Source of the DNA: Candidatus Latescibacterota bacterium
GTDB taxonomy: Bacteria; Latescibacterota; UBA2968; GCA-2709665
Assembly (NCBI GenBank): GCA_965226795.1
Contig: CBDDDZ010000004.1
Coordinates: 448,001 to 512,000 of the forward strand
Reading direction: 5' to 3'
Length of the DNA: 64,000 nucleotides
Under the pieces are notes generated by a model. That model saw only the letters and a program-made list of their open reading frames with translations, had not been told where the DNA came from and made no database searches. The position numbers and the translations under genes are program-made. This document shows positions 21,825-59,993 of this stretch, piece by piece (the first letter of the stretch is position 1; the number at the start of each line of letters is the position of its first letter).

Positions 21825-23441
21825 TTGGCTACTGCCCTCTTGGATAAGGACGCAGTCCTGCGGATGAAAACCCGGCTCGACGCGGCGGGGGTGACCAACC
21901 AGGACGCGGCGTTGCGCCAGGCGTCCGGTGAGGCCTTTTACAACGCTTCGCCCTTCAGGCTCCGCGATCTGACATCCCGCGCCAGACAGCAGCAGTTGAA
22001 GGCCGACTTCGAGGCGTATCTCGACGGGTTCTCGCCAAATGTGCTGGAAGTCCTCGAGAGGTTCAAGTTTCGCAATCAGATTCCTGAGTTGGTGGAGAAC
22101 GATTTGCTCGGGTTTCTTCTTGAGAAATTCCTTGATCCTTCGATCAAACTCAGCCCCAAACCGGTGTTGAACGCTGATGGATCCGTGCGTCTGGAGGCGC
22201 TCGACAACCACGGAATGGGCACTGTGTTCGAAGAACTGATCCGCCGTTTCAACGAGGAAAACAACGAGGAGGCCGGCGAGCACTTCACGCCTCGCGACGT
22301 CGTACAGCTCATGGCGCGGCTGATTTTCATACCGGTTGCCGACGAGGTCAAATCGGGCATATGGGAGTCCCGTTTCATCGTGGAACATGACGACGACCCG
22401 GAACACTCCCTAATTACCCGTTCCAGCGACGGACAGATGATGTTCCTGGCCAATATGCTGAGCAAGATGAAACAGGACACCCCTCTAGGCAGCCGCATCG
22501 CCGAAGTCCACAACGGCAGTTCACTCTTCACCGGAGACGCCGGACAGGGCGAGAGCAACATCCGTCGATGGATCATCGAGAACGATTGGCTCGAGGCTAT
22601 TGTCGCGCTGCCGCTCAACGTGTTCTACAACACGGGCATCGCCACCTACATCTGGGTGTTGACGAACCGCAAACCCGCGCATCGCCGGGGCAAGGTGCAA
22701 CTCATCGACGCAACGCAATGGTCCAAACCGCCACGAAAGAATCTAGGAAACAAGAACTGCGAACTTTCAGACGAGGATGTCGAGCGGATCTGCAATTCCT
22801 TTCTCACCTTCGAGGAGAACGAGCAGTCTAAGATCTTCCCCACCGACGCCTTCGGCTACTGGAAGGTCACGGTTGACCGGCCCTTACGGCTCAGCGTAGA
22901 CCTGTCGCCGGACCCTCGCGAGCGCTTCCGGACCGTCTGTTGCGATGCAAAGGAAGAGTCGCTTGCAGACGTCATCGATCGTGCGGCGGAAGCCGTAGGC
23001 GCAGGTCCTCACCGCAACTTCAACCAGTTCCTGGACGTCGTGGCAATGTACGCCCCTGAGTGCGGCGTTAAACTGACTACCGGACGAAAAAAGCTGCTTC
23101 AGACTGCCCTGGCATCCCGCGAAAAGGCCGCCGAGCCCGTCATAAAGAAAATCCATCGTCCGGGAAACGTCGAACCCGACAGCGAACTTCGCGACACCGA
23201 GCAAGTGCCTCTGCTCGAAGAAGGCGGCATCGAGAGCTTCCTGTGTCGCGAGGTGTTGCCCTACGCATCGGATGCCTGGTACGACCCCGCCAGCGTCAAG
23301 GTCGCATACGAAATCAGCTTCACGCGGTACTTCTACGAGCCGCAACCGATGCGCACACTTGAAGAAATAAGGGCCGACATTCTGGCGCGGGAACGGGAAA
23401 CCGAGGGATTGCTGGGAGAAATTCTCAGCGGGCAGAACTAA
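21825..23441 (+). pseudogene. hsdM: Type I R-M methyltransferase HsdM with N-terminal and internal in-frame deletions
   Basis: GTVFEELIRRF, GEHFTPRD, HNGSSLFTG and FYNTGI are present. The SAM-binding DxACGTGG and catalytic NPPY motifs are absent. Confidence 0.85.
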
Positions 23442-23944: not shown

Positions 23945-26044
23945 ATGAAAGCAACTGAGGCCAATCTACTGGCATTTCTCAGGAAATCACCTCAGTTTAA
24001 CATTCCTATATTTCAACGCACTTACTCCTGGACCGAGTCCCAATGTAGCCAGCTATGGGATGACATCTTGCGGGCTGGAGACGACGAGAATATACCTGCA
24101 CATTTCGTCGGATCCATTGTCTATATAGAAAAAGGCCTCTACCAGGTTTCCAGCCAATCGCCGCTATTGGTGATCGATGGACAACAACGCCTCACTACGG
24201 TCACACTAATTATTGAGGCGTTGGCACGACATTTGGAAGATCGCGAGCCGATCAAAGGCTTCTCAGCCAGGAAGCTTCGAAATTACTATTTGCTCAATCA
24301 AGATGAAGACGGCGATCAACGTTACAAATTGCTGCTAACTCAAACTGACGAGCAGACGCTCCTTGCGATAGTTGATCAAATAGAACTGCCCAAGCCCTGC
24401 TCCTTACGCCTCAAAGAGAATTTCCGCTTCTTCGAAACGAAGGTCAAGGACCTCGGCGAAAATGTCGTGCCGCTTTGCAATGGATTAGCGAAGCTCATAC
24501 TTGTAGACATATCGTTAAGCCGCGACCACGACAACCCACAGTTGATATTTGAGAGCATGAATTCGACCGGTCTAGAATTAAGTCAGGCAGATTTGATACG
24601 TAACTTCGTGCTAATGGGCTTGGAACGTACCGAACAGGAGAGACTCTATAAAGAATACTGGCGACCCATGGAACTCGCCTTTGGTCAAGATGCCTACAGC
24701 AGGCATTTTGATGGCTTTATGCGGCACTATTTGACCATCAAGACCGGGGACATCCCCAAGATCGGCAAGGTATACGAAGAGTTCAAATTATTCGCGAGAA
24801 GGCAGGAACACATTGGGATTGATTCACTGCTTGCAGATTTGCATAAGTTCGCTAACTATTACTGTGCGATGGCACTCGGAAACGAGGGTGAGCGGCGTCT
24901 TGCGGACGCCTTCCGCGACCTCCAGCACCTCCGAGTGGACGTTGCCTATCCGCTTCTTTTAGAACTATATGACGATTATTCTAGTTGCGAACTCTCGCTC
25001 GACGACTTCGACGAGGCCGTTCGTTATATAGAAAGCTACGTATTTCGAAGAGCTGTCTGTTCCATCCCAACCAACTCGCTCAACAAAACCTTTGCCACGT
25101 TTGGCCGCTCACTGAAAAAGGATCGATATTTGGAGAGCATGCTTGCACATTTTCAGCAGTTGCCGTCCTACCGACGGTTCCCCAATGACGACGAGTTTTC
25201 GCGTGAAATCAAGGTGCGAAACCTATACAACAATCGAACCAGCTATTGGTTGCGTAGACTTGAGAACTACGACAGGAAGGAACCCGTACCTGTCGACGAA
25301 TACACGGTGGAGCATATCTTGCCTCAGAACGAAAATCTGTCAACGGCATGGCAGGTCGCGATGGGGGACGATTGGCGAAGCGTACAAGAGAATTGGGTGC
25401 ATACGCTTGGGAATCTGACGCTCACAGGCTACAACGCTGAATACAGCGATCGACCATTTGCAGAGAAACGCGACATGAAGGGCGGATTTCGACAAAGCCC
25501 GCTTCGGCTGAATGAGGGCCTAGGCGAGTTGGATACATGGGACGAGGATGCGATCCGTGATCGCGCCGAGCGTCTGGCAAACAAGGCTGTGGAGGTTTGG
25601 AAGGGACCGTCCCTAAAGATCGAAGTTCTTCGAGACTACTCGCCTGACGCTGGCGCGGGAACAAAGAGCTATACCATAGAAGACCATCCCAACCTGCATG
25701 AGGGAAGTTCCACTCGAATTCTCTTCGAGGAATTCAGAAGGGAAGTACTCGCAATTGATCCGTGCGTCTCAGAAGAGTTTTTAAAGCTCTATGTTGCATA
25801 TAAGGCCGAGACAAACTTCGTTGATGTCGTTCCCCAGACCTCACGAATGAGATTGGCCCTGAATATGAAATTCCACGAACTGCATGACCCAAAGGGAATG
25901 GCAAATGACGTGACTAATCTTGGTCGGTGGGGCAACGGTGATGTGGAAACGATGATTTCCAGCATTGACGAACTGCCCTATGTGATGGGCCTCGTGCGTC
26001 AGGCTTTTGAAAGGCAAATGGGCGACGGCGGGACACTGGATTGA
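23945..26044 (+). CDS. GmrSD-like endonuclease (DUF262 + DUF1524) with C-terminal DUF5655-like domain
   Basis: IPIFQRTYSW, IDGQQRLTT, IFESMNSTG, EHILPQ, LGNLTL, then KLYVAYK...GRWGNGD. Confidence 0.92.
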   Translation: MKATEANLLAFLRKSPQFNIPIFQRTYSWTESQCSQLWDDILRAGDDENIPAHFVGSIVYIEKGLYQVSSQSPLLVIDGQQRLTTVTLIIEALARHLEDREPIKGFSARKLRNYYLLNQDEDGDQRYKLLLTQTDEQTLLAIVDQIELPKPCSLRLKENFRFFETKVKDLGENVVPLCNGLAKLILVDISLSRDHDNPQLIFESMNSTGLELSQADLIRNFVLMGLERTEQERLYKEYWRPMELAFGQDAYSRHFDGFMRHYLTIKTGDIPKIGKVYEEFKLFARRQEHIGIDSLLADLHKFANYYCAMALGNEGERRLADAFRDLQHLRVDVAYPLLLELYDDYSSCELSLDDFDEAVRYIESYVFRRAVCSIPTNSLNKTFATFGRSLKKDRYLESMLAHFQQLPSYRRFPNDDEFSREIKVRNLYNNRTSYWLRRLENYDRKEPVPVDEYTVEHILPQNENLSTAWQVAMGDDWRSVQENWVHTLGNLTLTGYNAEYSDRPFAEKRDMKGGFRQSPLRLNEGLGELDTWDEDAIRDRAERLANKAVEVWKGPSLKIEVLRDYSPDAGAGTKSYTIEDHPNLHEGSSTRILFEEFRREVLAIDPCVSEEFLKLYVAYKAETNFVDVVPQTSRMRLALNMKFHELHDPKGMANDVTNLGRWGNGDVETMISSIDELPYVMGLVRQAFERQMGDGGTLD

Positions 26045-26408
26045 CCGCTGATCTCAATCATTACCCTCTCTTCAGACCTTCTCCGGTCACATTGTTTGTG
26101 GGTACACCCCGAGCATCGGGACGTGTGGTAGCTAAGGACGTTCCGCAAGTTGTGACCACGGAAATTGGCAATACACTCGTCGCCGTCGGCACACTCTAAG
26201 GAAACGACATCGGTGTAAACTCTGGGAATTGTAGCGCTAACGCTCACAATCGGCGTATACGTGTCCGCAGAAGAATCGAGCCGTGATCTTGATCTGTCCA
26301 CGCGCAATACAAATTTAGGCATACGGTCGTTAACCGAAGATCGGTAGAATATAGGTTACCCTGGAAGATTAGTGTAGGATTGTCAAATTGACCACAGTGA
26401 GGTCAGCA

Positions 26409-26891
26409 ATGAACCTAAGGAAATGGTTTGCAGATTTTCATTTGGATAAGGTCAAGATAGGGCCAAGCTGGGCTTCGGTCGAAATCACCTTTGAAGAGAG
26501 TGATCGAGATGCTGCTTGGGAGTTATACGTAGAGATGCTAACGAGAATTGTAACTCAGCCGTTGCCATCCGAATCAGGCGACGAAAAAACGGCTTTGGAA
26601 AGTGTGTACGCGCTTTTTGGGATTACGAGAGAAATTCTGCGCCGCCGTGGGCGCGCGACGATGCAGTTCAGCAAGATTGCAATACCTGTTCTTAACCAAA
26701 TCGTACGACCCTTTACCGCAAAGTGGCATAAGGAAAGTATCGCGGGTGCCTTTGCCTGCGAAACGAAACGAAGAGAATTTCGCAAGGAACTGGAAATCCT
26801 GCAGAGTGAATTACGAAACTATAACTCGATGTTGGCGAATATCGCAGAAGTGGAAGATCTTACTGATTTGGAACTGCAAGATCCCGAATAA
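26409..26891 (+). CDS. Conserved hypothetical alpha-helical protein
   Basis: AAWELYVEMLTRI...ALESVYALF...LNQIVRPFTAKWH; first gene of the cassette. Confidence 0.7.
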   Translation: MNLRKWFADFHLDKVKIGPSWASVEITFEESDRDAAWELYVEMLTRIVTQPLPSESGDEKTALESVYALFGITREILRRRGRATMQFSKIAIPVLNQIVRPFTAKWHKESIAGAFACETKRREFRKELEILQSELRNYNSMLANIAEVEDLTDLELQDPE

Positions 26892-26921
26892 CAAAAAACA
26901 TGCTACGAGGGAATCGATATA

Positions 26922-27398
26922 ATGGCCGATGAAACGAAAAACGTCTTTATTAGCCACATCCACGAAGACGATGATGGTCTGGGCAAGCTGAAGAGTCTGT
27001 TGAAGGACAATGGAATGACTATTAGGGACTATTCAATAAACAAAGATAACCCGAACAATGCCCATTCGGAAAGTTACATCAAGTCGGAGATTCTTGCACC
27101 CCGTATACGGCGATCAAGTACGTTGGCCGTTTACGTCTCGCCGGAGACTAAAGATAGTCCCTGGGTAGACTGGGAAGTTGAGTATGCACATAAACATGAC
27201 AAACGCATTGTAGGTGTGTGGGCCCACGGTGAATCCGGTTGCGATGTTCCAGACGCACTGGAGAAATACGCCGACGCTATAGTTGGTTGGACGGGTAATC
27301 GCATCATCGATGCCATAAACGGAAAAATTGATGGTTGGGAAAACCCTGACGGCACAACTAGATCTCCTCGGAATATCGAGCGATATAGTTGTGGATAG
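26922..27398 (+). CDS. TIR domain protein (ThsB/DUF1863/MTH538-like)
   Basis: VFISH, DYS, SPET..SPWVDWEVEYA; the conserved TIR Glu is retained. Confidence 0.88.
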   Translation: MADETKNVFISHIHEDDDGLGKLKSLLKDNGMTIRDYSINKDNPNNAHSESYIKSEILAPRIRRSSTLAVYVSPETKDSPWVDWEVEYAHKHDKRIVGVWAHGESGCDVPDALEKYADAIVGWTGNRIIDAINGKIDGWENPDGTTRSPRNIERYSCG

Positions 27399-28017
27399 AA
27401 TCGAAAGTCCAAGGCTGTTCTCATATGTAGTCGCTCGCGATTACGGATTTGCGCCTAATCCTTTTTTTGGTTTCTGTACTTTAGCCACATGCAAACCCAA
27501 GATTCGACAGACAGCTTCCACAGGGGACTGGATCATAGGAACCGGTAGCAGCAAATACGGGAGACAGGGATTCCTAATTTTCGCCATGCGCGTAACCGAA
27601 ACAATGACATTTAATGAGTATTGGGACGACGACAGGTTTCGGCGGAAAAAACCAAACATGATGGGGAGCATGAAACAAGCTTTCGGCGACAACATCTACT
27701 TTAAGGATGATGTCGGTCGTTGGCACCAGGAGAATTCTCATCATAGCTATGATACCGGATTAAATAACCCTCACAATATTCGAAACGACACAAAAGCGGA
27801 CAGGGTTCTATGCAGTACAGACTACGCATTCTGGGGAGGATCTGGACCTAAAATACCCGAAGAATTCAGGAACTTTCGTGGTAAAGACATTTGTTGTCCG
27901 ATGCAGGGGCATAAATGCCGGTTTCCAGACGATCTAGTTGACCGTTTTGTCGAATGGATAAGGTCTCTAAATCAAAATGGGTATTGTGACGCACCCATAG
28001 AGTGGGGGACAGCATGA
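27391..28017 (+). CDS. Nucleotide modification associated domain 2 (Nmad2) protein
   Basis: YVVARDYGFAPNPF..CTLATCKPKIR..GDWIIG..GDNIY; GTG overlaps the TIR stop by 8 bp. Confidence 0.85.
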   Translation: MDRIESPRLFSYVVARDYGFAPNPFFGFCTLATCKPKIRQTASTGDWIIGTGSSKYGRQGFLIFAMRVTETMTFNEYWDDDRFRRKKPNMMGSMKQAFGDNIYFKDDVGRWHQENSHHSYDTGLNNPHNIRNDTKADRVLCSTDYAFWGGSGPKIPEEFRNFRGKDICCPMQGHKCRFPDDLVDRFVEWIRSLNQNGYCDAPIEWGTA

Positions 28018-29195
28018 CCATCAGACCGTCTGTGTCTACGGTGGACGAACGTGACAAGTCAAAAATAGAGACAACGATGCTTCTATCCGACTATATGCAA
28101 CAGATCGCACCCACCGATAGATTACCTCGAGACAATCTGCAACCGGTCCTAATGGGTCTTTTTGGAGAGGTTGGCAGCATCATGGCAACGGCCAAGAAGG
28201 CTCACAGGGAACAAGAGGCATATGTCGGATTCAAGCAGGCCGTGGAGGAAGAATTCGGCGACGTTTTGTGGTATTTTACGACTTTGTGTCGACGTCTTGG
28301 GACAGGAGTTGACATCATCGTTTCCGAAACGACAGATCGATCTCGATACAGCAAGGTTGTTGCCGCAAGCGATCTTTTGGATGGCCCGGTTTCTCACATT
28401 TCCTCTGTAGGTGAACTGCATGACCTTGACAAGACGCTACTGAATCTCGGAGAAGCTACGGCCGCACTTCTTGGAATCGAGAGAATGGATGAAGGCACGA
28501 GAGATTCGCTGCGCGTGTTCTCGGATTGCTATTTGCAAGCACTTCAAGCTGCCGGTGTGAGCTTTTCCAAGATAGCTCGTTTGAACATCAAGAAAGCTCG
28601 TGAGCGTTTTCTTGATCCCGATCCATCAAAATTACCAACATTCGATAGAAACTATCCCGATGAGGAGCGCCTTCCGGAGCATTTCGAGATCAAAATTATT
28701 CAACGAAAAAACGGACGAAGTTATATGCAGTGGAACGGTGTATTCATTGGCGATCCACTCACCGACAACATTACGTACCCGGACGGCTACCGATTCCATG
28801 ATGTGTTTCATCTTGCTAATGCCGCCATCCTTCACTGGTCTCCTACGTTTCGCGGCCTAATAAAGCGTAAACGCAAGAGCAACAGGAAGGTCGATGAAGC
28901 CCAGGATGGCGGCAGGGCGATCGTCGTTGAAGAAGGACTTAGTGCGTGGATATTTTCGTGCGCCAAAGATCTCGATTTTTTTTGTGATCAGAATACCGTC
29001 TCCTTTGATTTGTTGAAAACCTTGCAGCAGTTCGTTCGGGGATATGAAGTCCAAGAATGTCCGCTCAGACTTTGGGAAATGGCTATCTTGGAGGGCTACA
29101 GAGTATTTAGGCAAGTTCTGAAGAACGATGGCGGGATCGTAATTGGAGATCGTAAATCCCGTACTATAAAGTATCGTCCAATTCGTGGAGATTAG
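28014..29195 (+). CDS. MazG-like NTP pyrophosphohydrolase with MazG_C domain
   Basis: GLFGEVGS...EEFGDVLWY (MazG); DGYRFHDVFH and DEAQDGGRA (MazG_C); ATGA overlap with Nmad2. Confidence 0.88.
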   Translation: MTIRPSVSTVDERDKSKIETTMLLSDYMQQIAPTDRLPRDNLQPVLMGLFGEVGSIMATAKKAHREQEAYVGFKQAVEEEFGDVLWYFTTLCRRLGTGVDIIVSETTDRSRYSKVVAASDLLDGPVSHISSVGELHDLDKTLLNLGEATAALLGIERMDEGTRDSLRVFSDCYLQALQAAGVSFSKIARLNIKKARERFLDPDPSKLPTFDRNYPDEERLPEHFEIKIIQRKNGRSYMQWNGVFIGDPLTDNITYPDGYRFHDVFHLANAAILHWSPTFRGLIKRKRKSNRKVDEAQDGGRAIVVEEGLSAWIFSCAKDLDFFCDQNTVSFDLLKTLQQFVRGYEVQECPLRLWEMAILEGYRVFRQVLKNDGGIVIGDRKSRTIKYRPIRGD

Positions 29196-29198
29196 TCC

Positions 29199-29858
29199 GT
29201 GAAACTGATCCAGTTTTTGGATGCATTGAAGAACTTGAGCTTTGAGAATACATTTAATCCTTACTCAAATCGTTGTGCAGTCCACGATTTGGACGACGCA
29301 CCAGAGCGCCGCCTAAAATTGTTGCATTCTTTGCTTGAAGTGGCAACAGTACGGGAAATAGATTCTATATGGATCGGACGTGATCTTGGCTATCGTGGCG
29401 GTAGGCGAACAGGGCTTGCCTTAACGGACGATGTGCATATAGGCGAATACGCCGCGCGATGGGGATTATCCGTTCAACGGCTAACGAAAGGCGAAATTGC
29501 TGCCGAGCGGACAGCCGCTGCTATCTGGAGCGTACTCTCACAGATTAACCTATCTGTTTTTCTATGGAATGTCTTCCCATTGCACCCGCATGAACCCGGT
29601 AATCCTTTCAGCAATCGATCTCATAACTCTATCGAACGCAGGACAGGGGAAGAGCTACTTTCTCAGCTTATTCTCCTTCTGAAACCGCACCGACTGATTG
29701 CAATCGGCAATGATGCGGCACGAACAGTGCGTCGCTTAAGCGACAACCTGGAGTTCATTCAGGTACGCCATCCCAGCTATGGCGGAAAATCACGGTTCTT
29801 AGCTCAAATGTGCGACGCGTACAATCTGCAATCAGGAATCTTTCAAGGTTCGTTATAA
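29199..29858 (+). CDS. Uracil-DNA glycosylase superfamily protein
   Basis: GRDLGYRGGRRTG, WNVFPLHPH, NR and RHPSYGG motifs. Confidence 0.85.
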   Translation: MKLIQFLDALKNLSFENTFNPYSNRCAVHDLDDAPERRLKLLHSLLEVATVREIDSIWIGRDLGYRGGRRTGLALTDDVHIGEYAARWGLSVQRLTKGEIAAERTAAAIWSVLSQINLSVFLWNVFPLHPHEPGNPFSNRSHNSIERRTGEELLSQLILLLKPHRLIAIGNDAARTVRRLSDNLEFIQVRHPSYGGKSRFLAQMCDAYNLQSGIFQGSL

Positions 29859-31396: not shown

Positions 31397-34300
31397 ATGG
31401 ATGCCCGTTTAAAACAAATTCCACCGCCAAACACGTGGGAAGTTTTCGAAGACCTCTGTCATCAGCTATTCATAGCTGTTTGGCGCGACCCATATGCACA
31501 GAAGGTGGGAAGACGAGGCCAAGCTCAACAAGGAGTCGATATCTTTGGGTCGCCTAACGGGAACTATGAGATTTATCACGGCGTGCAGTGTAAATTGAAG
31601 GAGCACTCTCACAGCAGTAAACCGAGTATCGATGAACTCCAACGGGAAATATCCAAGGCTGACAGTTTTGAGCCAGCTTTGCATCACTGGATATTCGCAA
31701 CTACTGCCCCGGTTGACGCCACCCTACAACAAAAAGCACGACAAATCTCGGCAGTTCGAAAAGAAAGAGGGCTATTTACCGTCAGCGTGCTTGGTTGGGG
31801 TGACATCACGAATCTACTCTGTCAACACAAGCAAGTACTCTTGGAATTTTATCCCGAACAAGGATTTGACGTATCCCAACTTCTTGACAACATTCAAGCA
31901 ATGCCACATGCGTCGGAGGTTCGTGAATTACTAGATACCGTAAGGCGAATGGGCACACCCCGACATTCCGCTTTTCATCCACGTTCTATTTGGCGACCCA
32001 TAATTTTCGGTGGCGGCCGAGGCCTCGGACCAGCACTGATGGGTCGTTCGCTTGGGCCGCAAGACGCTGCTTCCTGTCCGGAGTTCCAGGAAGTGAACGC
32101 GGCGATCACTGAACTCAAGCGGGCTTACTCGGCGCGCATCGTCGGTGAACCCGGCACAGGAAAGTCGATTTGTGCATACCAAACAGCGCTTCATTTCGCC
32201 AAAAAGGGCTGGCACGTCCTTCGGCTGACCGACCCTCGTGTCGAGACAATAGAGTTGAAGGATGCTGACAATGAGCGGCGCACAATCTTCATTATCGACG
32301 ATGGCCACCTCACCAGCAATGCGGTCCTAAGGATCGCGGAAGACACGGCTGGTCCGCACCGACTGCTACTGTCAACCCATAATGCTGTAAAGCACGATAC
32401 ATCATCCCGTGGCGTGATCATCATTGATGCAGAACGTGCTGTTCGTAATATTGCGTCCGCGCTCTGCGATGATCCAGAACGCACGCTGACGGTAGTGCGC
32501 CGCATAGACAACACTGTGGGAAAATTACCGTCCGAAGTCTCCCTTGAGGATCGAATTCTCCAAGCGGAGCAGGATGCCAAGTACCCTTGGCAATTCTGTT
32601 TCATTGTTGGTGGTGGCTGGCGTCGATCTAAATTAGCCGTTACAGCCGCACGATCAGCCAATGCTGACGTAGCATTGGCCGGCATCGCTATTCACCAACT
32701 CGCCTCTCGCGATGCGCGCCCAAACCTAAATCAGCTAATATCTCTGTTAGGTGTCGCCGGGTTAGAGACTTCGGAAGTGGACGATTCCATCCGGTGGTTA
32801 ATAGACAATCGTTTAGTCATCGGCCCACACGACCTGCGGTGTCCTCACCAGCGATTTGCATCAGTCGCGCTCAAAGAAATACTTGAAGGACAGGACAACG
32901 ACGATTTGGAGCGAACTGGCAGCATGTTGAGACATATAATTGCCCACGTTGGGTACCCCATAGCAGGACTGTGGATTCTCTTGCAGGAACTTCGCATTGA
33001 CGGAGATTTTCGGCAGGGAAGATTTCTAATCCGCGAAGCATCATTGGAAACTCTCATGGAACGGTGCTGGCAAGCGACTAATCCGGAGGAGCGGACGTTT
33101 GCCAGCCTCGTTCTGAGGGAAATTGAATTCTACGCAACGGGTTGGCCACAAACACAATTGCAGGGCCGCGAACACATTCTCGGTCGTTGGATCTCTGATC
33201 CTGTAGAGCCAACCGGCTACGGTCTCGCGCGTCTTCTCCACGCGGTCTACAATAAGGACAGAGCATTTGCACGTGCATTGGTGGAAGCGTCAGAACCAAG
33301 AAAAGTGGCCGCGTCTGTCTCCTCAGTCACGCCCAATACGGCCTACAATTTGGGTGAAATCCTTGGCGCAATTCGACCTGATTCGGGTACTTCGTGGGGC
33401 CGGACCTTTTTGGACGGCTTGGATCGCTCGAGGCTTATTGCATTTGCGGCCGATTGGCCTGAATCAGAATCCGCATCGGGATTTACGAACTTTTGCCGCT
33501 CGATGACTTGCTCTGACGAGCCATTGGCGCTAGATATGTTCGAATCTTTCATTCCTATCGCACAGAAGCTATTGTCTCGAGATACCGTCTCAGCGTTTGG
33601 TGACCTTTTCCATATCGCACACCAGGTACTTCGGGTGTTGGACGTTCTTGGCATTTTTGTGGGCAAAACCGCACCAAAGTCTCGCCACCGCGAGTTGGCG
33701 CGTGAAATGATGCAAGGCGTTTCACCCTCACTTCTAGCTGATCAACTTTCGGCCAGCCAGCTCCGGCAGTTTCAGAACACGGGATTTCTGCTCACATTCA
33801 TGGCGAATGCGGTACCTGCAAAGTTTCGGGCTACTGTAGCTGCGATGGATTGGGCACGCATCGCAGAGACGATTGGCGATCACTGGAGAGATCTTCCGCA
33901 CGAACCAGAAGTCCTGTTTGGAATAGCCTATTGCGCCAGAAGCTGCCGCGAGAAAATCGCACAAGTTATCAATGACAATCTTCATCGGATCGAGGCATTT
34001 CCGCCCAGATTGGTCTTAGTCGCACCAAATGCCGCATATACGCATGCGGAGCACGGTGGTCTTATCCGACTAGCGAAATATGACCATGTGGATTGGCGGT
34101 TTGGCGTCGCGGTTTTAGAGTGCTTTTCCGAAGAGCGTCCAAACCTGTTAGAGGCCATTCTAAAGCCATCTGAGATCACTACTGGACGCGCATTTTCCCA
34201 AGTTCACCCCAGTTGGTACGATAAAGCTGGCGACTATGTTCAACTTCTAAGGGAAATTGCCCCACTGAGTCTTCAACGAATCCTTAACAATGTCGATGTA

Positions 34301-34468
34301 CGAGGCGCCGAAAAGGGTTGGACAGCATCGCTACGTTCTACGGCTGGGCCTCGAAGGACAGTGGCGTTGCTTGTTGAGTCGAGCCTCGAAAGGCAAGATG
34401 GGCTTGGGGCGCTGGCGAGGCGGGTACGTAAACGCTTCCCAAGAGCGTCTGTGCCGCGTGGTTCTTAG
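31397..34468 (+). CDS. PD-(D/E)xK nuclease + P-loop NTPase + helical domain (Avs/STAND-like defence protein)
   Basis: N-terminal FEDLC...GRRGQAQQGVDI...GVQCK; Walker A GEPGTGKS; Walker B IFIIDDGH; long helical C-terminus. Confidence 0.75.
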   Translation: MDARLKQIPPPNTWEVFEDLCHQLFIAVWRDPYAQKVGRRGQAQQGVDIFGSPNGNYEIYHGVQCKLKEHSHSSKPSIDELQREISKADSFEPALHHWIFATTAPVDATLQQKARQISAVRKERGLFTVSVLGWGDITNLLCQHKQVLLEFYPEQGFDVSQLLDNIQAMPHASEVRELLDTVRRMGTPRHSAFHPRSIWRPIIFGGGRGLGPALMGRSLGPQDAASCPEFQEVNAAITELKRAYSARIVGEPGTGKSICAYQTALHFAKKGWHVLRLTDPRVETIELKDADNERRTIFIIDDGHLTSNAVLRIAEDTAGPHRLLLSTHNAVKHDTSSRGVIIIDAERAVRNIASALCDDPERTLTVVRRIDNTVGKLPSEVSLEDRILQAEQDAKYPWQFCFIVGGGWRRSKLAVTAARSANADVALAGIAIHQLASRDARPNLNQLISLLGVAGLETSEVDDSIRWLIDNRLVIGPHDLRCPHQRFASVALKEILEGQDNDDLERTGSMLRHIIAHVGYPIAGLWILLQELRIDGDFRQGRFLIREASLETLMERCWQATNPEERTFASLVLREIEFYATGWPQTQLQGREHILGRWISDPVEPTGYGLARLLHAVYNKDRAFARALVEASEPRKVAASVSSVTPNTAYNLGEILGAIRPDSGTSWGRTFLDGLDRSRLIAFAADWPESESASGFTNFCRSMTCSDEPLALDMFESFIPIAQKLLSRDTVSAFGDLFHIAHQVLRVLDVLGIFVGKTAPKSRHRELAREMMQGVSPSLLADQLSASQLRQFQNTGFLLTFMANAVPAKFRATVAAMDWARIAETIGDHWRDLPHEPEVLFGIAYCARSCREKIAQVINDNLHRIEAFPPRLVLVAPNAAYTHAEHGGLIRLAKYDHVDWRFGVAVLECFSEERPNLLEAILKPSEITTGRAFSQVHPSWYDKAGDYVQLLREIAPLSLQRILNNVDVRGAEKGWTASLRSTAGPRRTVALLVESSLERQDGLGALARRVRKRFPRASVPRGS

Positions 34469-35108: not shown

Positions 35109-35627
35109 ATTTAGAATTTGCTGTTACAAAGTACAAATCTACAAGTGCAACAGTTGTAATTCATAATGTTAATAGTGGTCAGGGCATTTGCGGGTACGCG
35201 GGTGCTTTAATCCGCTCCCTTGTTGAATCTCGGTAGTCGAGCGACGTAGGAATGGGAGGTCGGAACTGTTCTACAATACAAAGCCAGGGCCCCTGCAAGA
35301 TTCCGGCGCACTCGTAAAGGTTCTTATCGATCAGGGTGCGCCAGAGCCTCACTGACGGTATTTCGCCGCACACCCGGTGGATACAGCCTCGTAAAGCAAC
35401 TGATCCGACGCGGATTACGGAGACCGATCGAGCAGGCGGCGCAGGGCAGATATCACGCCTTGTCGGCCAACGACATTCAAACCCAATCAACTTGGAAGTG
35501 AATTCAACCAACATAGAGGTGCGCGGGGCGGCGGCCCAATATCCAGAAAAAAGATGAAAATCAGTTCTTCTATGACACTGACGACAACAGAGATGGCTAT
35601 GGCTTGTCGAAAGACCAACAATCAAGA

Positions 35628-36650
35628 ATGGAGGCGAAAATGGCGCGAGCGTTCGTAGTCAAAGCAGTCGCCGACGGGTGGCCGATTTCCGGCGTTTTCG
35701 AGGAACTGCGATCCGGCAGAGCGAGGATTGGCTGGTCCGACCGGGACGATCTCGACCTTCGTCTTATACAGAAAGACCTCTCAAGGGGAACACCGCTGAA
35801 TAAGGATCAAAAAAACGCCAGGCGATGCTTGGGATTCCTTACCAGAGTTTCTCCAGACGACTATCTTATTTATCCCCATCAGCCAGAGAGAGGTCAGTTC
35901 TGTGTTGTCTTGGCCACAGGCGAATACGACTTTTCGGACAAGGAAGAGGGTCTCGACAAAGACTTCCGGTCATTTAGACCCTGCTCCCTTGTGACGACGG
36001 AGCCGGTAAACGTGCACGACGAGATCGTTTCTTCGCAACTCCGGCATCGACTCGGAAGACCGGGTCGGTTCTCCGAGATATACAACACCGGGCCGTTATC
36101 CGAATTCCTTGAGGATCTCCCAAATGCAGGACGGCTCCAAGACGACTCGAATCGGGCAAGTTTGCAGAGGATACACAACAAGCTTCGAAGGAAACTACCT
36201 GAAGTACTTCACGAGGAGTTCAGTAGAGCCGATTTATCCAGGAAGCTCTGTCGTGACCTTTTCGAGCGCATGGGTTACGTTCACGAAATTCGGGAGGGTC
36301 CCACCGAAGTTGGCTCCGATGTCGTCGTGACGCTGGGCGATCCCCTATTGCCTGATGAAGTCGAGATCCGAATCGGTATCCAAGTTTTCTCCTACGAAGG
36401 TAATGTCGAAGAGTGGGACCTTAGGGAAAAACTGGACCAGTTACTGCGCGGCTGGGAAGAGAACAGCCTCAAATACGGAGCTCTACTTACAACGGGACGC
36501 TGCGGTGATGAAGCTAGAGCATTACTGCTTAGACATAATCAAAATGAGAAGAATCGCCCGGTGCGTCTGATTGACGGTGACGACCTTGCCGATCTCTTCT
36601 TGCGATACTTTCCACCTGCAACGGATCGAGCAAGCTACGACAGGGAATGA
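35628..36650 (+). CDS. Mrr-like restriction endonuclease
   Basis: N-terminal RIGWS domain; C-terminal LFERMGY...GSDVV...IGIQV...LLTTG...LIDGDDLADL. Confidence 0.75.
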   Translation: MEAKMARAFVVKAVADGWPISGVFEELRSGRARIGWSDRDDLDLRLIQKDLSRGTPLNKDQKNARRCLGFLTRVSPDDYLIYPHQPERGQFCVVLATGEYDFSDKEEGLDKDFRSFRPCSLVTTEPVNVHDEIVSSQLRHRLGRPGRFSEIYNTGPLSEFLEDLPNAGRLQDDSNRASLQRIHNKLRRKLPEVLHEEFSRADLSRKLCRDLFERMGYVHEIREGPTEVGSDVVVTLGDPLLPDEVEIRIGIQVFSYEGNVEEWDLREKLDQLLRGWEENSLKYGALLTTGRCGDEARALLLRHNQNEKNRPVRLIDGDDLADLFLRYFPPATDRASYDRE

Positions 36651-37108: not shown

Positions 37109-38761
37109 ATGACGGTTTCCGCGAATGAACTCCAAGCGTGGATGAACAACCGGGAAGATGAGCATCTTGAATTCAAAGAGGCAAAGACGAGGTTCGACTT
37201 TAAGACCTTGGTGAAGTACTGTCTTGCCCTCGCCAATGAACGCGGTGGAAGGATTATCTTGGGCGTTGCGGATAAACTGCCGCGAAGGGTTGTCGGTAGC
37301 ACGGCTTTTCGAAATCTCGAAAGGACAAAGGAAGACCTGATTGAGCGACTGCGGCTTCGTGTTGACGTCGAAGAGATTCAACACCCGGATGGTCGGGTTC
37401 TGGTCTTTCAGGTACCCTCCCGTCCGATCGGTGTGCCTATGCAGTATGAAGGCGCGTATTGGATGCGTGGTGGCGAGGCCCTTATTCCAATGACACCGGA
37501 TCAACTCCAACGCATTTTCGCCGAGGGGAGCCCCGATTTCTCGTCTGAAATTTGTGCGTCTGCCCAAATGGACGATCTCGATCCACTCGCCGTTGAGGTT
37601 CTGCGTCAACTCTGGCAGCGTAAGTCACCGGACCAGGATATCTCGACCCGCCCCGTAGAGCGACTCCTGGAAGATGCCGAGTTGGTCGTTGATGGCCAGG
37701 TGACGAACGCGGCGCTGATCCTGCTGGGCACGCGCAAAGCCTTGGGCAAATATCTCGCCCAGGCGGAACTTATCTTCGAGTACCGATCCAACGAAATTCC
37801 GGGTCCCGCGGCGGAGCGACATGAGTTCAGACAGGGCTTTCTCCCTGCGCTCGACGAGACCTGGCGACTTATCAACCAGCGAAATGACCTGCAACACTTT
37901 CAGCAAGGACTCTTTGTTTGGGATGTGCCCACTTTCAACGAGCGTGTGGTTCGCGAGGCCGTCTTGAACGCAGTCAGTCACCGTGATTATCGTCTCGGAG
38001 GATCCATCTTTATTCGCCAGTACCCTCGACGCATCGAGATCGTGAGCCCTGGCGGATTTCCAGCCGGAATCACCCCAGAGAATATCCTTAGGCAACAGAA
38101 TCCGCGCAATCGTCGTATCGCCGAAGTCCTTGGCAGATGCGGTTTGGTCGAACGGGCAGGGCAGGGATGTGACCTTATCTTTCGCGAGTGTATTCGGCAG
38201 AGTAAGCCGTTGCCCGATTTCTCCCTTACGGATGCACACTCCGTATGGCTCATGCTGGACGGAGACATCCAGGACCTGGAATTCCTGCGCTTTTTGGAGG
38301 AGATTGGTCGGGAACGAGTGGCCACATTCGGCCTTGACGATTTGCTGGTGGTCGATTTCGTCCACCGGGAGGAACGTGTTCCGGATAACCTCGAACCAAG
38401 AGTTGAGCATCTGCTGGACCAGGGGATCATCGAGCGCATGGGACGCGGGCGGGGCGTGCGGCTACTGCTTTCACGGCGGTTCTACCGCCACATCGGTAAG
38501 CCAGGGGTCTACACGCGCAAGCGGGGATTGGACCGCGAGACTAACAAGGAACTGCTACTGAAGCACATTCAAGAAAACCGGAAGGAAGGGAGTCCATTGA
38601 AGGAACTCGTTCAGGTGTTGCCAGCTCTTTCTTACGTCCAAGTTCAGAAATTACTCCAAGCCTTGAGAATTGGGGGGCAGATCCACAAAGTCGGAAACAC
38701 TAGCGCAGCTCGCTGGTATCCAGGCAGAACTCCTTCGGGAATTGTGCCTGAAAATAAATAA
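37109..38761 (+). CDS. AlbA_2 (Schlafen-like) + HATPase_c_4 + wHTH protein
   Basis: LEFKEA, ALANERGG.IILGV, REAVLNAVSHRDY, SPGG, RNRRIA and ERAGQG motifs. Confidence 0.9.
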   Translation: MTVSANELQAWMNNREDEHLEFKEAKTRFDFKTLVKYCLALANERGGRIILGVADKLPRRVVGSTAFRNLERTKEDLIERLRLRVDVEEIQHPDGRVLVFQVPSRPIGVPMQYEGAYWMRGGEALIPMTPDQLQRIFAEGSPDFSSEICASAQMDDLDPLAVEVLRQLWQRKSPDQDISTRPVERLLEDAELVVDGQVTNAALILLGTRKALGKYLAQAELIFEYRSNEIPGPAAERHEFRQGFLPALDETWRLINQRNDLQHFQQGLFVWDVPTFNERVVREAVLNAVSHRDYRLGGSIFIRQYPRRIEIVSPGGFPAGITPENILRQQNPRNRRIAEVLGRCGLVERAGQGCDLIFRECIRQSKPLPDFSLTDAHSVWLMLDGDIQDLEFLRFLEEIGRERVATFGLDDLLVVDFVHREERVPDNLEPRVEHLLDQGIIERMGRGRGVRLLLSRRFYRHIGKPGVYTRKRGLDRETNKELLLKHIQENRKEGSPLKELVQVLPALSYVQVQKLLQALRIGGQIHKVGNTSAARWYPGRTPSGIVPENK

Positions 38762-38822
38762 TAGGCCCAAAAGCATAAACTTGGCACAAGTTTGGCATAA
38801 TTTATTTTATAAGTATCTGTTT
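38736..38822 (+). repeat. Direct repeat copy 2
   Basis: Overlaps the AlbA gene stop; matches 35023-35108. Confidence 0.9.
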
Positions 38823-39231
38823 TTTTGTGCTTTATTACTATATTTTTTCTTGACAAAGCATAAATCTTCAAGCAAAAAAGTCATAATTCATATGTTCGGT
38901 GGACAGATCCTCCGCGGATGATGAAGAACGTGCTCGTTGCAGCCCAACCGCGATCGCCGCACCACCTGGCATGCGGCCCGATCTTGGAGGTTGTCAGGCG
39001 CCGGAGCCTGGATTTCCATTGGCCGCTAATTGATCGAGAATCGTCGGAACGACACCCGAATTCTATAACCCATTAATTTTATTGCATTTGTTTAATTGAC
39101 GGGTAATTGACTGGAAACGCCTCATGACCACCGCCGTCCGTGCCCTTCTCATCTCGAACGTGAGTGCGGGCGAGACCGATGAACACGAGGCGGAGTGTCT
39201 CTACGGTAAGTCCCTAACTTCAGTCTGAGCC

Positions 39232-40521
39232 ATGCCAAGCCGACGGACAAGAATAAGCTTGCAACCCGATGTCCTGCAGTGGGCACGAGAACGTACTCGC
39301 GTCAGCCGCGACGAACTTGCTCGCAAGATGCACTTCCCGAATCTGGTCAAGGTGGACCGCGTCGGGGTAAGGGCCGGATAGACACATTGAGAGAGCGTAG
39401 AGTGGGAGGAAACCGGCAACATCAGTGTTGCCCAGGCAGACAGGCTCGCGGAACGCACACATACGCCCCTTGGATTGCTGTACCTTTCAAAGCCGCCCGA
39501 AGACTGACCAATCTGCCCGCATTCGCGAGGCCATGGATACCTGACTTCGTGAGTACGGGCGAGAACGAGAACCAAAATGCAGGTCGACCCATACGGAAGC
39601 CCCTCCGCTACGTCCGAGCCCTGACCTGCTGGAAACGGTTTATGCCATGCAGCGGCGACAGGACTGGATGCGAGAAGAACTGATCAGGAACGGCGCAGAT
39701 CCGCTGCAGTTCGTCGGCGCATACGACCTTGCGCAGAATCACGTGCAGGTGGCGAGCGCAATGCGGAACGTGCTGGGCATTTCAATTGGCTGGGCGGCAA
39801 GCCTGGACTCCTGGACTGCCGCGCTCAGATTCCTACGGAACAGATTGGACATGGCCGGCGTACTCGTGGTCTTCAACGGGGTCGTTGGCAACAGTACCAG
39901 CCGAAAGCTCAACACCGACGAGTTTCAAGGCTTCGCCCTGGTGGATGAATACGCTCCATTGATATTTGTTAACAACGCAGATTACATAGCGGCCAAGATG
40001 TTCACGCTTGCCCACGAACTGGCCCACGTATGCGTCGGAGAGTCGGGTGTATCCCACTTTGAGAGGTTGCAACCTTCACAGAATGCTACGGAGCGATTCT
40101 GTGATCAGGCGGCAGCGGAGTTTCTGGTGCCGGAGTCCAGTTTTCGGGATTTGTGGAATCTTGTGGGCCGCAATACCTTGGGGCCGACAAGTGTTCCTTT
40201 TGAGTCGATTGCGCGTCAATTCAAGGTAAGTGCAATCGTAGCGGCCCGGCGAGCCCTGGACCTGGACCTGATTGACCTCGAGACCTTTTTCGCCTTCTAT
40301 GAAAACCACAAGGCAACAAGGAGGTTCCAATCAACCCACAACCGTACGGTGGCGGTAACTTCTGGAGTACTCAGAGGTGGCGCATAGGCCCTCGGTTCGC
40401 GTCTGCGGTCTGCCGTGCGACAAAAGAAGAACGCCTGACATATAGGGAAGCGTGCTCTCTTACCGGGCTGAGCGGCGAGTCCCTTGAAAACATGGCCGTC
40501 AAGTTGGATATTCCACTATGA
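39232..40521 (+). pseudogene. XRE-HTH + ImmA/IrrE metallopeptidase, disrupted
   Basis: PDVLQWARER, EWEETG, PSPDLLET, FTLAHELAH and GGNFW..RIGPRFA fragments are spread over several frames with stops. Confidence 0.85.
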
Positions 40522-41042
40522 CGAGTCAGAACCGAACAAAGCTCCTGGATGCTGATGCCCTGATAGCTGCACACCGCAACTTTTACGCGCCGGATATATG
40601 TCCAGGATTCTGGGACTGCATTAACCATCACATTGCAAGTGGACGACTGCTTATCATTGACCGGGTACTTAACGAAATCAAATATCCACCGGATTTGGTC
40701 GCGTGGGTGCGACGACTTCCGCAACACGCACTTGTATCCACTTCGGCACATGCCGTTGCTGACGCCTACGCAGCCATAATGGATTGGGTACAGAACAATT
40801 CGCAGTTTACGCAGTCGGCCAAGGGTGAATTTGCCGATAGGGCCGATGGATGGCTTGTCGCATATTCGACGTTGAATGATACTTGCGTTGTTACCAACGA
40901 AGCGTTCGATCCCAATGTTCGGAAAAATGTGAAGCTCCCCAACGTCTGCGAGCAATTCGGAGTCAATTATCAAGATACATATGCGATGCTTCGCTGGCTG
41001 GAAGCGCATTTTGACCACCGACACTGGGAGCCTCCTGCTTGA
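40518..41042 (+). CDS. DUF4411 family PIN-like protein
   Basis: LLDADALI...FY..DICPGFW...ADGWLVAY...VVTNE...KLPNVC; ATGA overlap with the ImmA gene, its usual partner. Confidence 0.85.
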   Translation: MTSQNRTKLLDADALIAAHRNFYAPDICPGFWDCINHHIASGRLLIIDRVLNEIKYPPDLVAWVRRLPQHALVSTSAHAVADAYAAIMDWVQNNSQFTQSAKGEFADRADGWLVAYSTLNDTCVVTNEAFDPNVRKNVKLPNVCEQFGVNYQDTYAMLRWLEAHFDHRHWEPPA

Positions 41043-41718
41043 ACACCGACATCTCCGAACACGGGCTTGAAAGCCTCATCTGCACGGCGTTAGCCGGCGA
41101 CCCGAACGCCACGACGCATCCGGGCAATGAAAAAGCCAGGGCACGGTACGAGCACAACCGCTTCAGTGTTACTCGGCAACTCCAATACAGCCGCGACAAT
41201 ACCCGGCTTGCTCGCGATTTGTGCCTGTTCATCAACGGCCTGCCGGTTGCCGCGTTCGAACTGAAGAACAGCCTGACCAAGCAGACGGTCGAGGATGCCA
41301 TTAAGCAGTATAATCGCGACCGAAGCAACGGCGAAAAGCTCTTCGAGTTCGGTCCCGTACCGACCTGCGGAGGCACCGGAAAGCCTGAGCCCGAGATTGA
41401 CCGCCTCAGCAACATATTGAAGACTTTTAACGAACTGTTCGGGAATATCGATTGGAAGGACGGGACAAGATCGGAAGGGTCATCGCCGAGGAGTTGCCTG
41501 CGAAGGTCGCCGCTGATAAGGCTTACCGGAACGCGATGGAAAACTCGGACAGGCAGAACGCACGGATCGAGCACGACAAGGCGCTCGAAAGGGCCGTGAC
41601 GGAACGATTAACCGACCACACCGAGCTATTCATGCAGTTCAGCGACAACGAGTCGTTCCGGAAATGGCTATCGGAGACCAACTTTCGTACTACCTACCGT
41701 CAAACAGCCAACGTTTGA
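41039..41718 (+). pseudogene. hsdR: Type I R-M HsdR remnant (N-terminal nuclease piece joined to extreme C-terminus)
   Basis: FSVTRQLQY, FINGLPVAAFELKN and EKLFEFG join directly to PVPT..KPEPEIDRLSNILKTFN, followed by a frameshift to NSDRQNARIEH. No helicase motifs. Confidence 0.88.
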
Positions 41719-57854: not shown

Positions 57855-57935
57855 GTCACCCATGGGATGGACGCTGAATAGGTACGTCACGGGTCGATGG
57901 TTTATCATCAAGGTCTACAGTAGAGGGAGAACGTA

Positions 57936-59957: not shown

Positions 59958-59993
59958 ACGCTTCCACCGGACCATCTGGAGGCACAGGCCCAA

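What the first reader, a model, noticed from the sequence alone, without database searches (positions are those of the whole stretch)
26409..29858. Five-gene TIR - Nmad2 - MazG/MazG_C - UDG cassette: candidate uncharacterised anti-phage system acting on nucleotides or modified bases
Seen: five co-directional intact ORFs with operon-tight spacing (30-bp gap, 8-bp overlap, ATGA overlap, 3-bp gap). They are more AT-rich than the flanking catabolic genes and sit between hsdM and hsdS of a dead type I R-M locus. Motifs: unknown helical protein (AAWELYVE..RPFTAKWH); ThsB-like TIR with conserved WVDWE; Nmad2 (DYGFAPNP, CTLATCKP); MazG (EEFGDVLWY) fused to MazG_C (DGYRFHDVFH); UDG-fold protein (GYRGGRRTG, HPSYGG). 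Established: ThsB-type TIRs make NAD-derived signals for a partner effector; MazG hydrolyses non-canonical NTPs; UDG-fold enzymes excise bases; Nmad2 and MazG_C were defined computationally from predicted base-modification neighbourhoods. No ThsA-type effector (SIR2-SLOG, TM-Macro) and no obvious base-modifying transferase is present. Inference: a TIR-triggered or TIR-coupled system that destroys modified or normal dNTP pools and/or excises modified bases from phage DNA. I know of no experimental characterisation of this combination.
Basis: partly seen in the sequence, partly recalled or inferred. Interest (0 to 1): 0.88.

Follow-up and report, generated by a model that had tools for sequence, protein, structure and literature searches.

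The report
Modular TIR-Nmad2 phage-defence operon
Five intact genes form a mobile, probably anti-phage operon whose signalling enzyme and base-reader-like protein are shared with a validated E. coli defence system, and a conserved cysteine tail suggests a testable way in which those two proteins are linked.

Summary
The five ORFs are real and intact. The core is a TIR-Nmad2 pair: 78 of 78 close Nmad2 relatives have a TIR directly upstream. The same pair is in DS-4, a validated E. coli system (DefensePredictor), which also lists MazG/MazG-C/NMAD/UDG among unvalidated predicted domains. The scan found this cassette before (10 findings, at least 9 genomes).

Added here: (1) these TIRs end in a cysteine tail (99 of 100, versus 6 of 38 other TIRs). 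TIR-less Nmad2 often carry such a tail themselves, and the only Nmad2 lacking Cys34 is a fusion whose TIR part also lost the tail Cys. (2) UDG and HMUDK_hel never co-occur (26 versus 12 of 39 MazG loci) and swapped several times. (3) Gene 1 sits behind other TIRs elsewhere and tends to alternate with SLOG, like a Thoeris effector; it is not demonstrably ThsG/DUF6650. (4) The Nmad2 model is PUA/YTH-like (Z 7.7) and the MazG part resembles dimeric dUTPases (Z 11).

Best model (0.4): uracil-type nucleotide processing feeds a ligand to Nmad2, which activates the tethered TIR to signal to gene 1. Verdict: new variant of a known kind, chemistry untested.

The parts
26409..26891 (+). Gene 1: helical protein of an unnamed family (short form; relatives add an N-terminal hydrophobic helix or a patatin domain). 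Candidate Thoeris-type effector.
   Evidence: No Pfam/PADLOC/NCBIfam hit; 2954 homologues; TM and patatin forms; lies behind other TIR genes in Nmad2-free loci.
26922..27398 (+). Gene 2: ThsB-like TIR with catalytic Glu85, an HxH motif (His12, His14) and a C-terminal Cys157 tail
   Evidence: Pfam ThsB_TIR 9e-23, PADLOC ThsB 4e-65; Glu85, His12 and Cys157 in 67 of 67 aligned relatives.
27390..27392 (+). Codon for TIR Cys157, the conserved tail cysteine
   Evidence: 99 of 100 Nmad2-adjacent TIR ORFs have a Cys in the last 7 residues, against 6 of 38 other TIRs; not an overlap artefact.
27391..28017 (+). Gene 3: Nmad2; predicted PUA/YTH/EVE-like fold with invariant Cys34, Asp100, Asn101, Asp133; candidate sensor
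   Evidence: Pfam 1e-68; model pLDDT 96; best fold matches are YTH/ASCH/EVE-type, Z up to 7.7, rmsd 4.0, 139 aligned.
28014..29195 (+). Gene 4: all-alpha NTP pyrophosphohydrolase region (residues about 18-200) fused to MazG_C (HDxxH, KRK, EE motifs; activity unknown)
   Evidence: Pfam MazG_C 1e-79; profile hits iMazG 9e-8 and dCTP pyrophosphatase 1 2e-5; model matches dimeric dUTPases 5myd (Z 11.1, rmsd 3.4, 153 aligned) and 1w2y (Z 10.9, rmsd 4.5, 178 aligned).
29199..29858 (+). Gene 5: UDG-superfamily protein of an unassigned family
   Evidence: Pfam UDG 9e-6; invariant motifs across 36 sequences; only weak matches (E 0.25-0.3) to solved archaeal and Thermotoga UDGs.
23945..26044 (+). Context, not part of the cassette: GmrSD-DUF5655 modification-dependent nuclease
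   Evidence: Pfam, PADLOC.
21825..23441 (+). Context: internally deleted hsdM
   Evidence: About 110 residues missing relative to a paralogue on contig C5.
29868..31310 (+). Context: hsdS directly after the cassette
   Evidence: Pfam Methylase_S, PADLOC Specificity_I.

Best explanation
A Thoeris-like anti-phage signalling system with its own nucleotide-sensing front end. Step 1 (fold shown, substrate inferred): gene 4, a dimeric-dUTPase-like pyrophosphohydrolase, and gene 5, a UDG-fold glycosylase, process uracil-type nucleotides or bases (dU, 5-hydroxymethyl-dU or a derivative) that rise during infection. Step 2 (fold modelled, binding inferred): Nmad2 binds the product. Step 3 (covariation shown, chemistry inferred): Nmad2 holds the TIR through the TIR's C-terminal Cys157 and its own Cys34, by a shared metal site or a covalent bridge, so ligand binding switches the TIR on. 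Step 4 (catalytic Glu shown, product inferred from the family): the TIR turns NAD+ into an ADP-ribose-derived signal. Step 5 (gene context shown, role inferred): gene 1 receives the signal and arrests the cell; other loci use SLOG or two-helix membrane proteins in its place.
For: TIR is adjacent to Nmad2 in 78 of 78 close relatives, against 2 of 17 distant ones. TIR-Nmad2 and Nmad2-MazG-MazG_C fusions exist. The same pair is in validated DS-4. Cys tail: 99 of 100 versus 6 of 38, held in 12 of 12 clusters at 60% identity. A Cys tail on Nmad2 itself: 1 of 78 TIR-adjacent versus 6 of 14 TIR-less. The one parsed Nmad2 of 124 without Cys34 is the fusion P0145, whose TIR part has no tail Cys. Accessory enzymes centre on pyrimidine deoxynucleotides: UDG or HMUDK_hel, thymidylate synthase, thymidylate kinase, dCTP deaminase-like. 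42 of 46 full-context loci carry SLOG, gene 1 or a two-helix membrane protein; gene 1 and SLOG cluster2 co-occur in only 3 of 46 (p 0.007, kin not independent). Gene 1 relatives lie directly behind another TIR in 5 of 9 Nmad2-free loci and near one in 3 more. Nmad2 fold class; dUTPase-like fold.
Against: No ligand, signal or binding was measured or modelled. The Nmad2 fold match is below Z 8, and Foldseek gave no hit under E 0.001. Gene 1 has a separate TIR beside it in some loci (L020, L030, L077), so in the window it may be an orphan of another module, although no TIR remnant lies upstream of it. 4 of 46 loci lack any of the three effector candidates and 7 of 46 lack MazG_C. The tail Cys could instead pair inside the TIR with His12/His14. 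8 of 14 TIR-less Nmad2 scored no tail under my cut. MazG/UDG destroy uracil nucleotides while the DS-4 enzymes make them, which one ligand model does not easily cover. 80 of the loci were picked as best matches to this Nmad2, so the sample leans to close kin.
Confidence: 0.4

Rival explanations
1. Direct attack without a second messenger: the TIR works as a nucleotide N-glycosidase, so gene 4 (dNTP to dNMP), the TIR (dNMP to base) and gene 5 (base excision from DNA) starve or damage phages that use modified pyrimidines, like human DCTPP1, DNPH1 and SMUG1 (analogy recalled).
For: The DS-4 TIR was annotated by HHpred as a CMP/hmCMP hydrolase fold; gene 4's profile hits dCTP pyrophosphatase 1; a modification-dependent nuclease lies next door.
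Against: Gene 2's sequence matches are ThsB/TIR proteins. Effector-like genes accompany 42 of 46 loci. The DS-4 row seen is against lambda (unmodified DNA recalled). The core occurs without MazG in 7 of 46 loci.
Confidence: 0.2
2. Genes 4 and 5 are guards or dampers, not ligand makers: they keep the uracil-type trigger low in uninfected cells, and TIR-Nmad2 fires when infection overwhelms or inhibits them.
For: dUTPase-like and UDG folds are house-cleaning enzymes. The core also occurs alone (L029, L030, L090, L101). In type IV CBASS, deleting the glycosylase-like Cap11 raised toxicity and did not cut defence.
Against: UDG swaps with HMUDK_hel, whose phage relatives are group-transfer enzymes on DNA rather than repair enzymes, and MazG_C is not explained.
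Confidence: 0.17
3. Nucleobase-protein conjugation: the accessory enzymes and Nmad2 attach a pyrimidine to the TIR's tail cysteine and so prime it, as deazaguanylation primes the cyclase in type IV CBASS.
For: Invariant terminal Cys specific to this TIR clade. Clade 2 aGPT-Pplases form a C5-methylene intermediate that a thiol traps in vitro. Type IV CBASS gives a precedent, and TIR operons with cap9-11 exist.
Against: The thiol-trap data are for clade 2 phage enzymes, and I did not test that the HMUDK_hel genes here are of that clade. The window has UDG, with no such chemistry known to me. The Cys sits 0-6 residues from the end. No QueC/TGT genes were among the recurrent neighbours annotated.
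Confidence: 0.12
4. The window's copy is a four-gene module plus an orphan effector left from another TIR system, or the cassette has a non-defence role in nucleotide clean-up.
For: Gene 1 is within 5 kb in only 13 of 46 loci and pairs with other TIRs elsewhere; the host R-M locus is decayed.
Against: Gene 1 directly precedes the Cys-tailed TIR in at least nine other loci and is intact. Distribution is patchy: 5 of 41 relatives, 7 of 400 and 12 of 401 genomes of two other classes. The core is in a validated defence system.
Confidence: 0.11

Closest known systems
DS-4 (working name NTTI), E. coli; DefensePredictor, PMC13092281 (passages and supplementary tables S6, S7, S8, S11 seen)
   Same: Overlapping TIR-Nmad2 pair; its TIR also ends in Cys and shares the N-terminal and tail motifs by eye; its HMUDK_hel gene is the alternative to UDG in this family.
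   Different: DS-4 has thymidylate synthase, dNMP kinase and HMUDK_hel where the window has MazG-MazG_C and UDG, and it has no gene 1. The one phenotype row seen was lambda, -log(EOP) 0.93 with smaller plaques. I found no mechanism paper.
Predicted, unvalidated systems in DefensePredictor Fig. 6F (text and legend seen; figure not held)
   Same: MazG, MazG-C, NMAD and UDG are all named among the domains of eight predicted systems.
   Different: I could not see whether one of the eight has this gene order; the authors state that none of these domains is validated.
Thoeris types I-XI (Yirmiya et al., bioRxiv 10.64898/2025.12.03.692087; parts 1-4 of 8 read, supplements closed)
   Same: ThsB-like TIR with catalytic Glu next to an effector-like gene. 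Type VI ThsG also comes with and without N-terminal membrane helices.
   Different: No named effector family is met; gene 1 is not DUF6650 by Pfam or HHalign. Nmad2, MazG and UDG are extra; 'MazG' and 'glycosylase' do not occur in that paper's main text.
PUA-Cal-HAD (bioRxiv 10.64898/2026.01.15.699771; passages seen)
   Same: A PUA-like domain reads a modified nucleotide released during infection; TIR-fused and MazG-containing variants are described.
   Different: Ligand is m6-dAMP and the effector is a calcineurin-like phosphoesterase with HAD; 'NMAD' does not occur in its text.
Type IV CBASS deazaguanylation (bioRxiv 10.1101/2025.04.06.647259; passages seen)
   Same: Nucleobase-handling accessory enzymes, one glycosylase-like, regulate a signalling enzyme through its terminus.
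   Different: Different enzymes (QueC, TGT), a cyclase instead of a TIR, and an N-terminal site.

Membership tests
Thoeris (any type) | ThsB-like TIR with catalytic glutamate | tested here: met
   Pfam and PADLOC hits; Glu85 in 67 of 67.
Thoeris types I-III | Cognate SIR2-SLOG, Macro-TM or SLOG effector | tested here: not met
   None among the five genes; no LD_cluster2 or STALD match in the 96%-complete genome (the control genomes also gave no match, so genome-wide absence is not proven).
Thoeris (any type) | Phage-induced ADP-ribose-derived signal that activates the effector | not testable with these tools
   Needs lysate LC-MS and effector assays.
Type VI Thoeris | Effector carries DUF6650 (PF20355) | tested here: not met
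   No DUF6650 among the families listed for 29 family members (25 of 35 weak families shown); HHalign probability under 1%, within shuffled controls. Only an Atlas lead at 0.85.
DS-4 | Adjacent TIR-Nmad2 pair | tested here: met
DS-4 | Thymidylate synthase, dNMP kinase and HMUDK_hel genes | tested here: not met
   Not among the ORFs scanned in and around the cassette; MazG-MazG_C and UDG are there instead.
DefensePredictor Fig. 6F predicted system | MazG, MazG-C, NMAD and UDG in one operon | tested here: inconclusive
   All four domains are present, but the figure with the gene order is not held.
PUA-like modified-base readers (YTH, EVE, ASCH) | PUA-like fold in Nmad2 | tested here: inconclusive
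   Top rows are YTH, ASCH, VcaM4I, McrB-N and THYN1, but best Z is 7.7 (rmsd 4.0, 139 aligned) and Foldseek best E is 0.02.
All-alpha NTP pyrophosphohydrolases (MazG, dimeric dUTPase) | Helical fold with acidic metal ligands | tested here: met
   Glu52, Glu79, Glu80, Asp83 conserved; profile hit E 9e-8; Z 11.1 to 5myd. Substrate not tested.
Named UDG families 1-6 | Family-specific motifs and significant similarity to a solved member | tested here: inconclusive
   Pfam UDG just over cut-off; best solved match E 0.25; no structure model made.
Type IV CBASS-like conjugation systems | QueC (Cap9) and TGT (Cap10) genes | tested here: not met
   Not in the cassette or among the 30 neighbour representatives scanned.

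The most novel reading that the evidence does not exclude
TIR-Nmad2 is a two-part immune receptor joined by a cysteine bridge, in which the TIR's tail cysteine either completes a site in a modified-base reader or is itself modified with a pyrimidine. It reads a uracil-type nucleotide made by interchangeable enzyme sets and signals to an unnamed effector family (gene 1). That would be a Thoeris system triggered by nucleotide chemistry rather than by a phage protein.
Probability: 0.3. Interest if true: 0.85.

Novelty: new variant of a known kind. Interest (0 to 1): 0.6.

Why it matters
How most Thoeris TIRs sense infection is open (my knowledge), and I found no mechanism paper for DS-4. This family gives named residues to test: TIR Cys157 and Glu85, Nmad2 Cys34, gene 4 Glu79/Glu80/Asp83 and His262/Asp263, gene 5 His191. 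It also offers natural swap experiments (UDG versus HMUDK_hel; gene 1 versus SLOG). If the model holds it would define a nucleotide-sensing TIR receptor, a new effector family and possibly new pyrimidine chemistry in MazG_C. The gene set itself is not a new discovery.

Tried and rejected
Gene 1 as ThsG/DUF6650: similar layout by eye and an Atlas lead (0.85), but HHalign was under 1% and no better than shuffled or reversed controls; rejected as shown homology.

Tail Cys as a by-product of the overlapping Nmad2 start codon: both Cys codons are used (74 TGC, 25 TGT), all three frames occur, and only 18 of 97 overlap a candidate start; rejected.

UDG/HMUDK_hel exclusivity as a single split: the quick Nmad2 tree needs 8 changes, at least 4 forced by strong branches; labels are still clustered, so the Fisher p (3e-9) overstates.

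No solved relative of Nmad2 by sequence and no useful Atlas family. MazG_C got no fold match, but the search was filled by the N-terminal domain, so it is barely tested. No TIR-Nmad2 complex prediction is available, so binding is untested. No Nmad2 in 50,697 phage records. No promoter above chance.

Expression: one RNA run has scattered short contigs over the region at low depth, which does not show transcription; one run of unrecorded library type has a contig identical over 25969-29411 but may be the source sample.

Iyer 2013 and Burroughs 2015, the likely first descriptions, are not held; what I say of them is recalled or taken from citing text. The Thoeris preprint's supplements and Fig. 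1C (29 effector types) were not visible and may already list gene 1.
Full report
Observation. The five ORFs, their spacing and their low GC are as described. Pfam gives ThsB_TIR, Nmad2, MazG_C and UDG, and nothing for gene 1. PADLOC names only the TIR. The cassette lies in a defence island: a deleted hsdM, an intact GmrSD-DUF5655 gene, the cassette, hsdS, a nuclease-STAND gene, an Mrr-type nuclease and an hsdR remnant. The genome holds one ThsB-type TIR, and no SLOG cluster2 or STALD match was found.

Spread. Nmad2 is in 5 of 41 related genomes, 7 of 400 genomes of one other class and 12 of 401 of another, and on 18 of 72,556 plasmids. I collected 124 loci. Five short duplicates and one truncated locus were dropped, leaving 118, or 113 after merging at 90% identity. 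Eighty of them were the best matches to this Nmad2, so the set leans to close kin; 20 came from genome samples. Among loci with room upstream, 78 of 78 close Nmad2 (230 bits or more) have a TIR directly before them, against 2 of 17 distant ones. Natural TIR-Nmad2 and Nmad2-MazG-MazG_C fusions occur among 17 long representatives scanned.

Modules. In 46 loci with at least 2.5 kb on both sides, 39 have MazG_C; of these 26 have UDG, 12 have HMUDK_hel, none has both and 1 has neither. Across all 113 loci, 43 have UDG, 19 have HMUDK_hel and none has both. A quick tree needs at least four swaps, though labels are clustered. Other recurrent neighbours are thymidylate kinase, thymidylate synthase, dCTP deaminase-like and radical SAM genes. 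The shared theme is uracil/thymine deoxynucleotides. It is matched by gene 4's best fold hits, two dimeric dUTPases (Z 11.1 and 10.9), and by its profile hit to dCTP pyrophosphatase 1. MazG_C remains unassigned; DefensePredictor calls it a predicted nucleotide kinase.

Effector slot. 42 of the 46 loci carry SLOG cluster2 (26), gene 1 (13), a small two-helix membrane protein (5) or SLOG cluster3 (2); gene 1 and SLOG cluster2 meet in 3. Searched on its own, gene 1 lay directly behind a different TIR in 5 of 9 Nmad2-free loci (L128-L131, L135), near a TIR gene in 3 (L136, L138, L139) and with none seen in 1 (L134, short flank) (4 of 11 plasmid hits were opened). Its family has short, membrane-anchored and patatin-fused forms, which recalls type VI Thoeris ThsG, but homology to DUF6650 failed. 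I read it as an unnamed Thoeris-type effector; this rests on gene context only.

Cysteine tail. Of 100 TIR ORFs directly upstream of Nmad2 (not de-duplicated), 99 have a Cys within the last seven residues; the miss is half of a split gene whose other half has it. Other stand-alone TIRs in the same loci score 6 of 38 and non-TIR ORFs 56 of 848. The tail holds in 84 of 84 clusters at 90% identity and 12 of 12 at 60%, uses both codons and all three frames relative to Nmad2, and is present in the DS-4 TIR. Nmad2 proteins with a TIR neighbour almost never have a Cys tail of their own (1 of 78), while TIR-less ones often do (6 of 14). Nmad2 Cys34 is present in 123 of 124 parsed representatives (of 150); the exception is the TIR-Nmad2 fusion P0145, whose linker also lacks the tail Cys. 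This points to a Cys-mediated link between the two proteins, but it is one covariation event, and an intramolecular site with TIR His12/His14 is not excluded. A word search of earlier scan notes found no finding with all of these terms.

Nmad2 fold. The model is confident (pLDDT 96). Its best matches are YTH domains, ASCH, VcaM4I, McrB N-terminal domains and THYN1, at Z 5-7.7; Foldseek agrees weakly. The class is consistent, but the scores are below the level that excludes a common arrangement. That these are readers of modified bases is established knowledge; the ligand here is unknown.

Mechanism. The reading that covers most facts is sensor (Nmad2), signal enzyme (TIR) and effector (gene 1), fed by uracil-processing enzymes; I give it 0.4. 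Shown: gene order, modularity, conserved residues, fold classes. Inferred: ligand, complex, signal and killing. The DS-4 row against lambda suggests the trigger need not be modified phage DNA; a nucleotide released or made during infection, as in PUA-Cal-HAD, fits better. Rivals are direct destruction of modified pyrimidines (0.2), a guard role for genes 4-5 (0.17), nucleobase conjugation to the TIR tail (0.12) and an orphan or non-defence reading (0.11).

Novelty. The core is in validated DS-4 and the domain set is listed as predicted defence. The scan has reported this cassette in 10 findings from at least 9 genomes. Nine paper searches found no experimental study of the MazG-UDG form and no mechanism for DS-4; subscription papers, the two Aravind-group papers and preprint supplements were not visible. 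Papers seen: DefensePredictor (passages of both versions; supplementary table rows), Yirmiya 2025 (parts 1-4 of 8), PUA-Cal-HAD, Lee 2021 and the deazaguanylation preprint (passages); others as search listings only. Verdict: a new variant of a known kind, worth 0.6 because the Cys tail and the swap patterns make its mechanism directly testable.

Noticed in passing
window 23945-26044: Intact GmrSD-DUF5655 modification-dependent nuclease gene between hsdM and the cassette.
   Followed up: partly
window 31397-34468: 1023-aa protein with an N-terminal restriction-nuclease-like domain and a novel STAND NTPase, Avs-like in layout; only weak PADLOC hits.
   Followed up: no
window 35604-36650: Protein with a C-terminal Mrr-type nuclease domain, weakly matching PADLOC PDC-S02.
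   Followed up: no
window 37109-41042: Schlafen/AlbA_2-HATPase gene, then an IrrE-like metallopeptidase and a 174-aa ORF that looks PIN-like by recalled motif (the last not scanned).
   Followed up: no
window 41039-41599: hsdR remnant that joins two parts lying about 2 kb apart in a paralogue.
   Followed up: yes
window 29199-29858: The UDG has Lys197 where at least 90% of 41 relatives have Gln, just after the HPSYGG motif; effect unknown.
   Followed up: no
L100:2-2572, L105:7880-10534, L137:5830-8499: The gene 1 domain lies at the N-terminus of roughly 880-aa proteins beside TIR genes; the two scanned (L100, L105) are patatin-like with membrane helices.
   Followed up: partly
L057, L076, L078, L106, L118: dCTP-deaminase-like proteins with a hydrophobic C-terminal helix near TIR-Nmad2; in L076 and L106 paired with a radical SAM/SPASM gene.
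   Followed up: no
L007:4629-6818, L103:2727-4898: Metallophosphoesterase with a weak thymidylate-synthase-like hit next to Nmad2.
   Followed up: no
L018:3404-4132, L085:5564-6274: Nmad3 genes next to Nmad2; L085 also has a second, divergent Nmad2.
   Followed up: no
L026, L027, L028: TIR-less, divergent Nmad2 at a conserved spot between a 1,395-aa gene and a PALP-family gene in three genomes, which looks unlike a defence island.
   Followed up: no
L004:5136-7963, L006:6071-8965: The MazG-MazG_C gene is split by an inserted stretch in two relatives.
   Followed up: no
window 55839-61972: Two DUF6785-DUF6784 paralogues flank a GHL10 glycoside-hydrolase-like gene.
   Followed up: no
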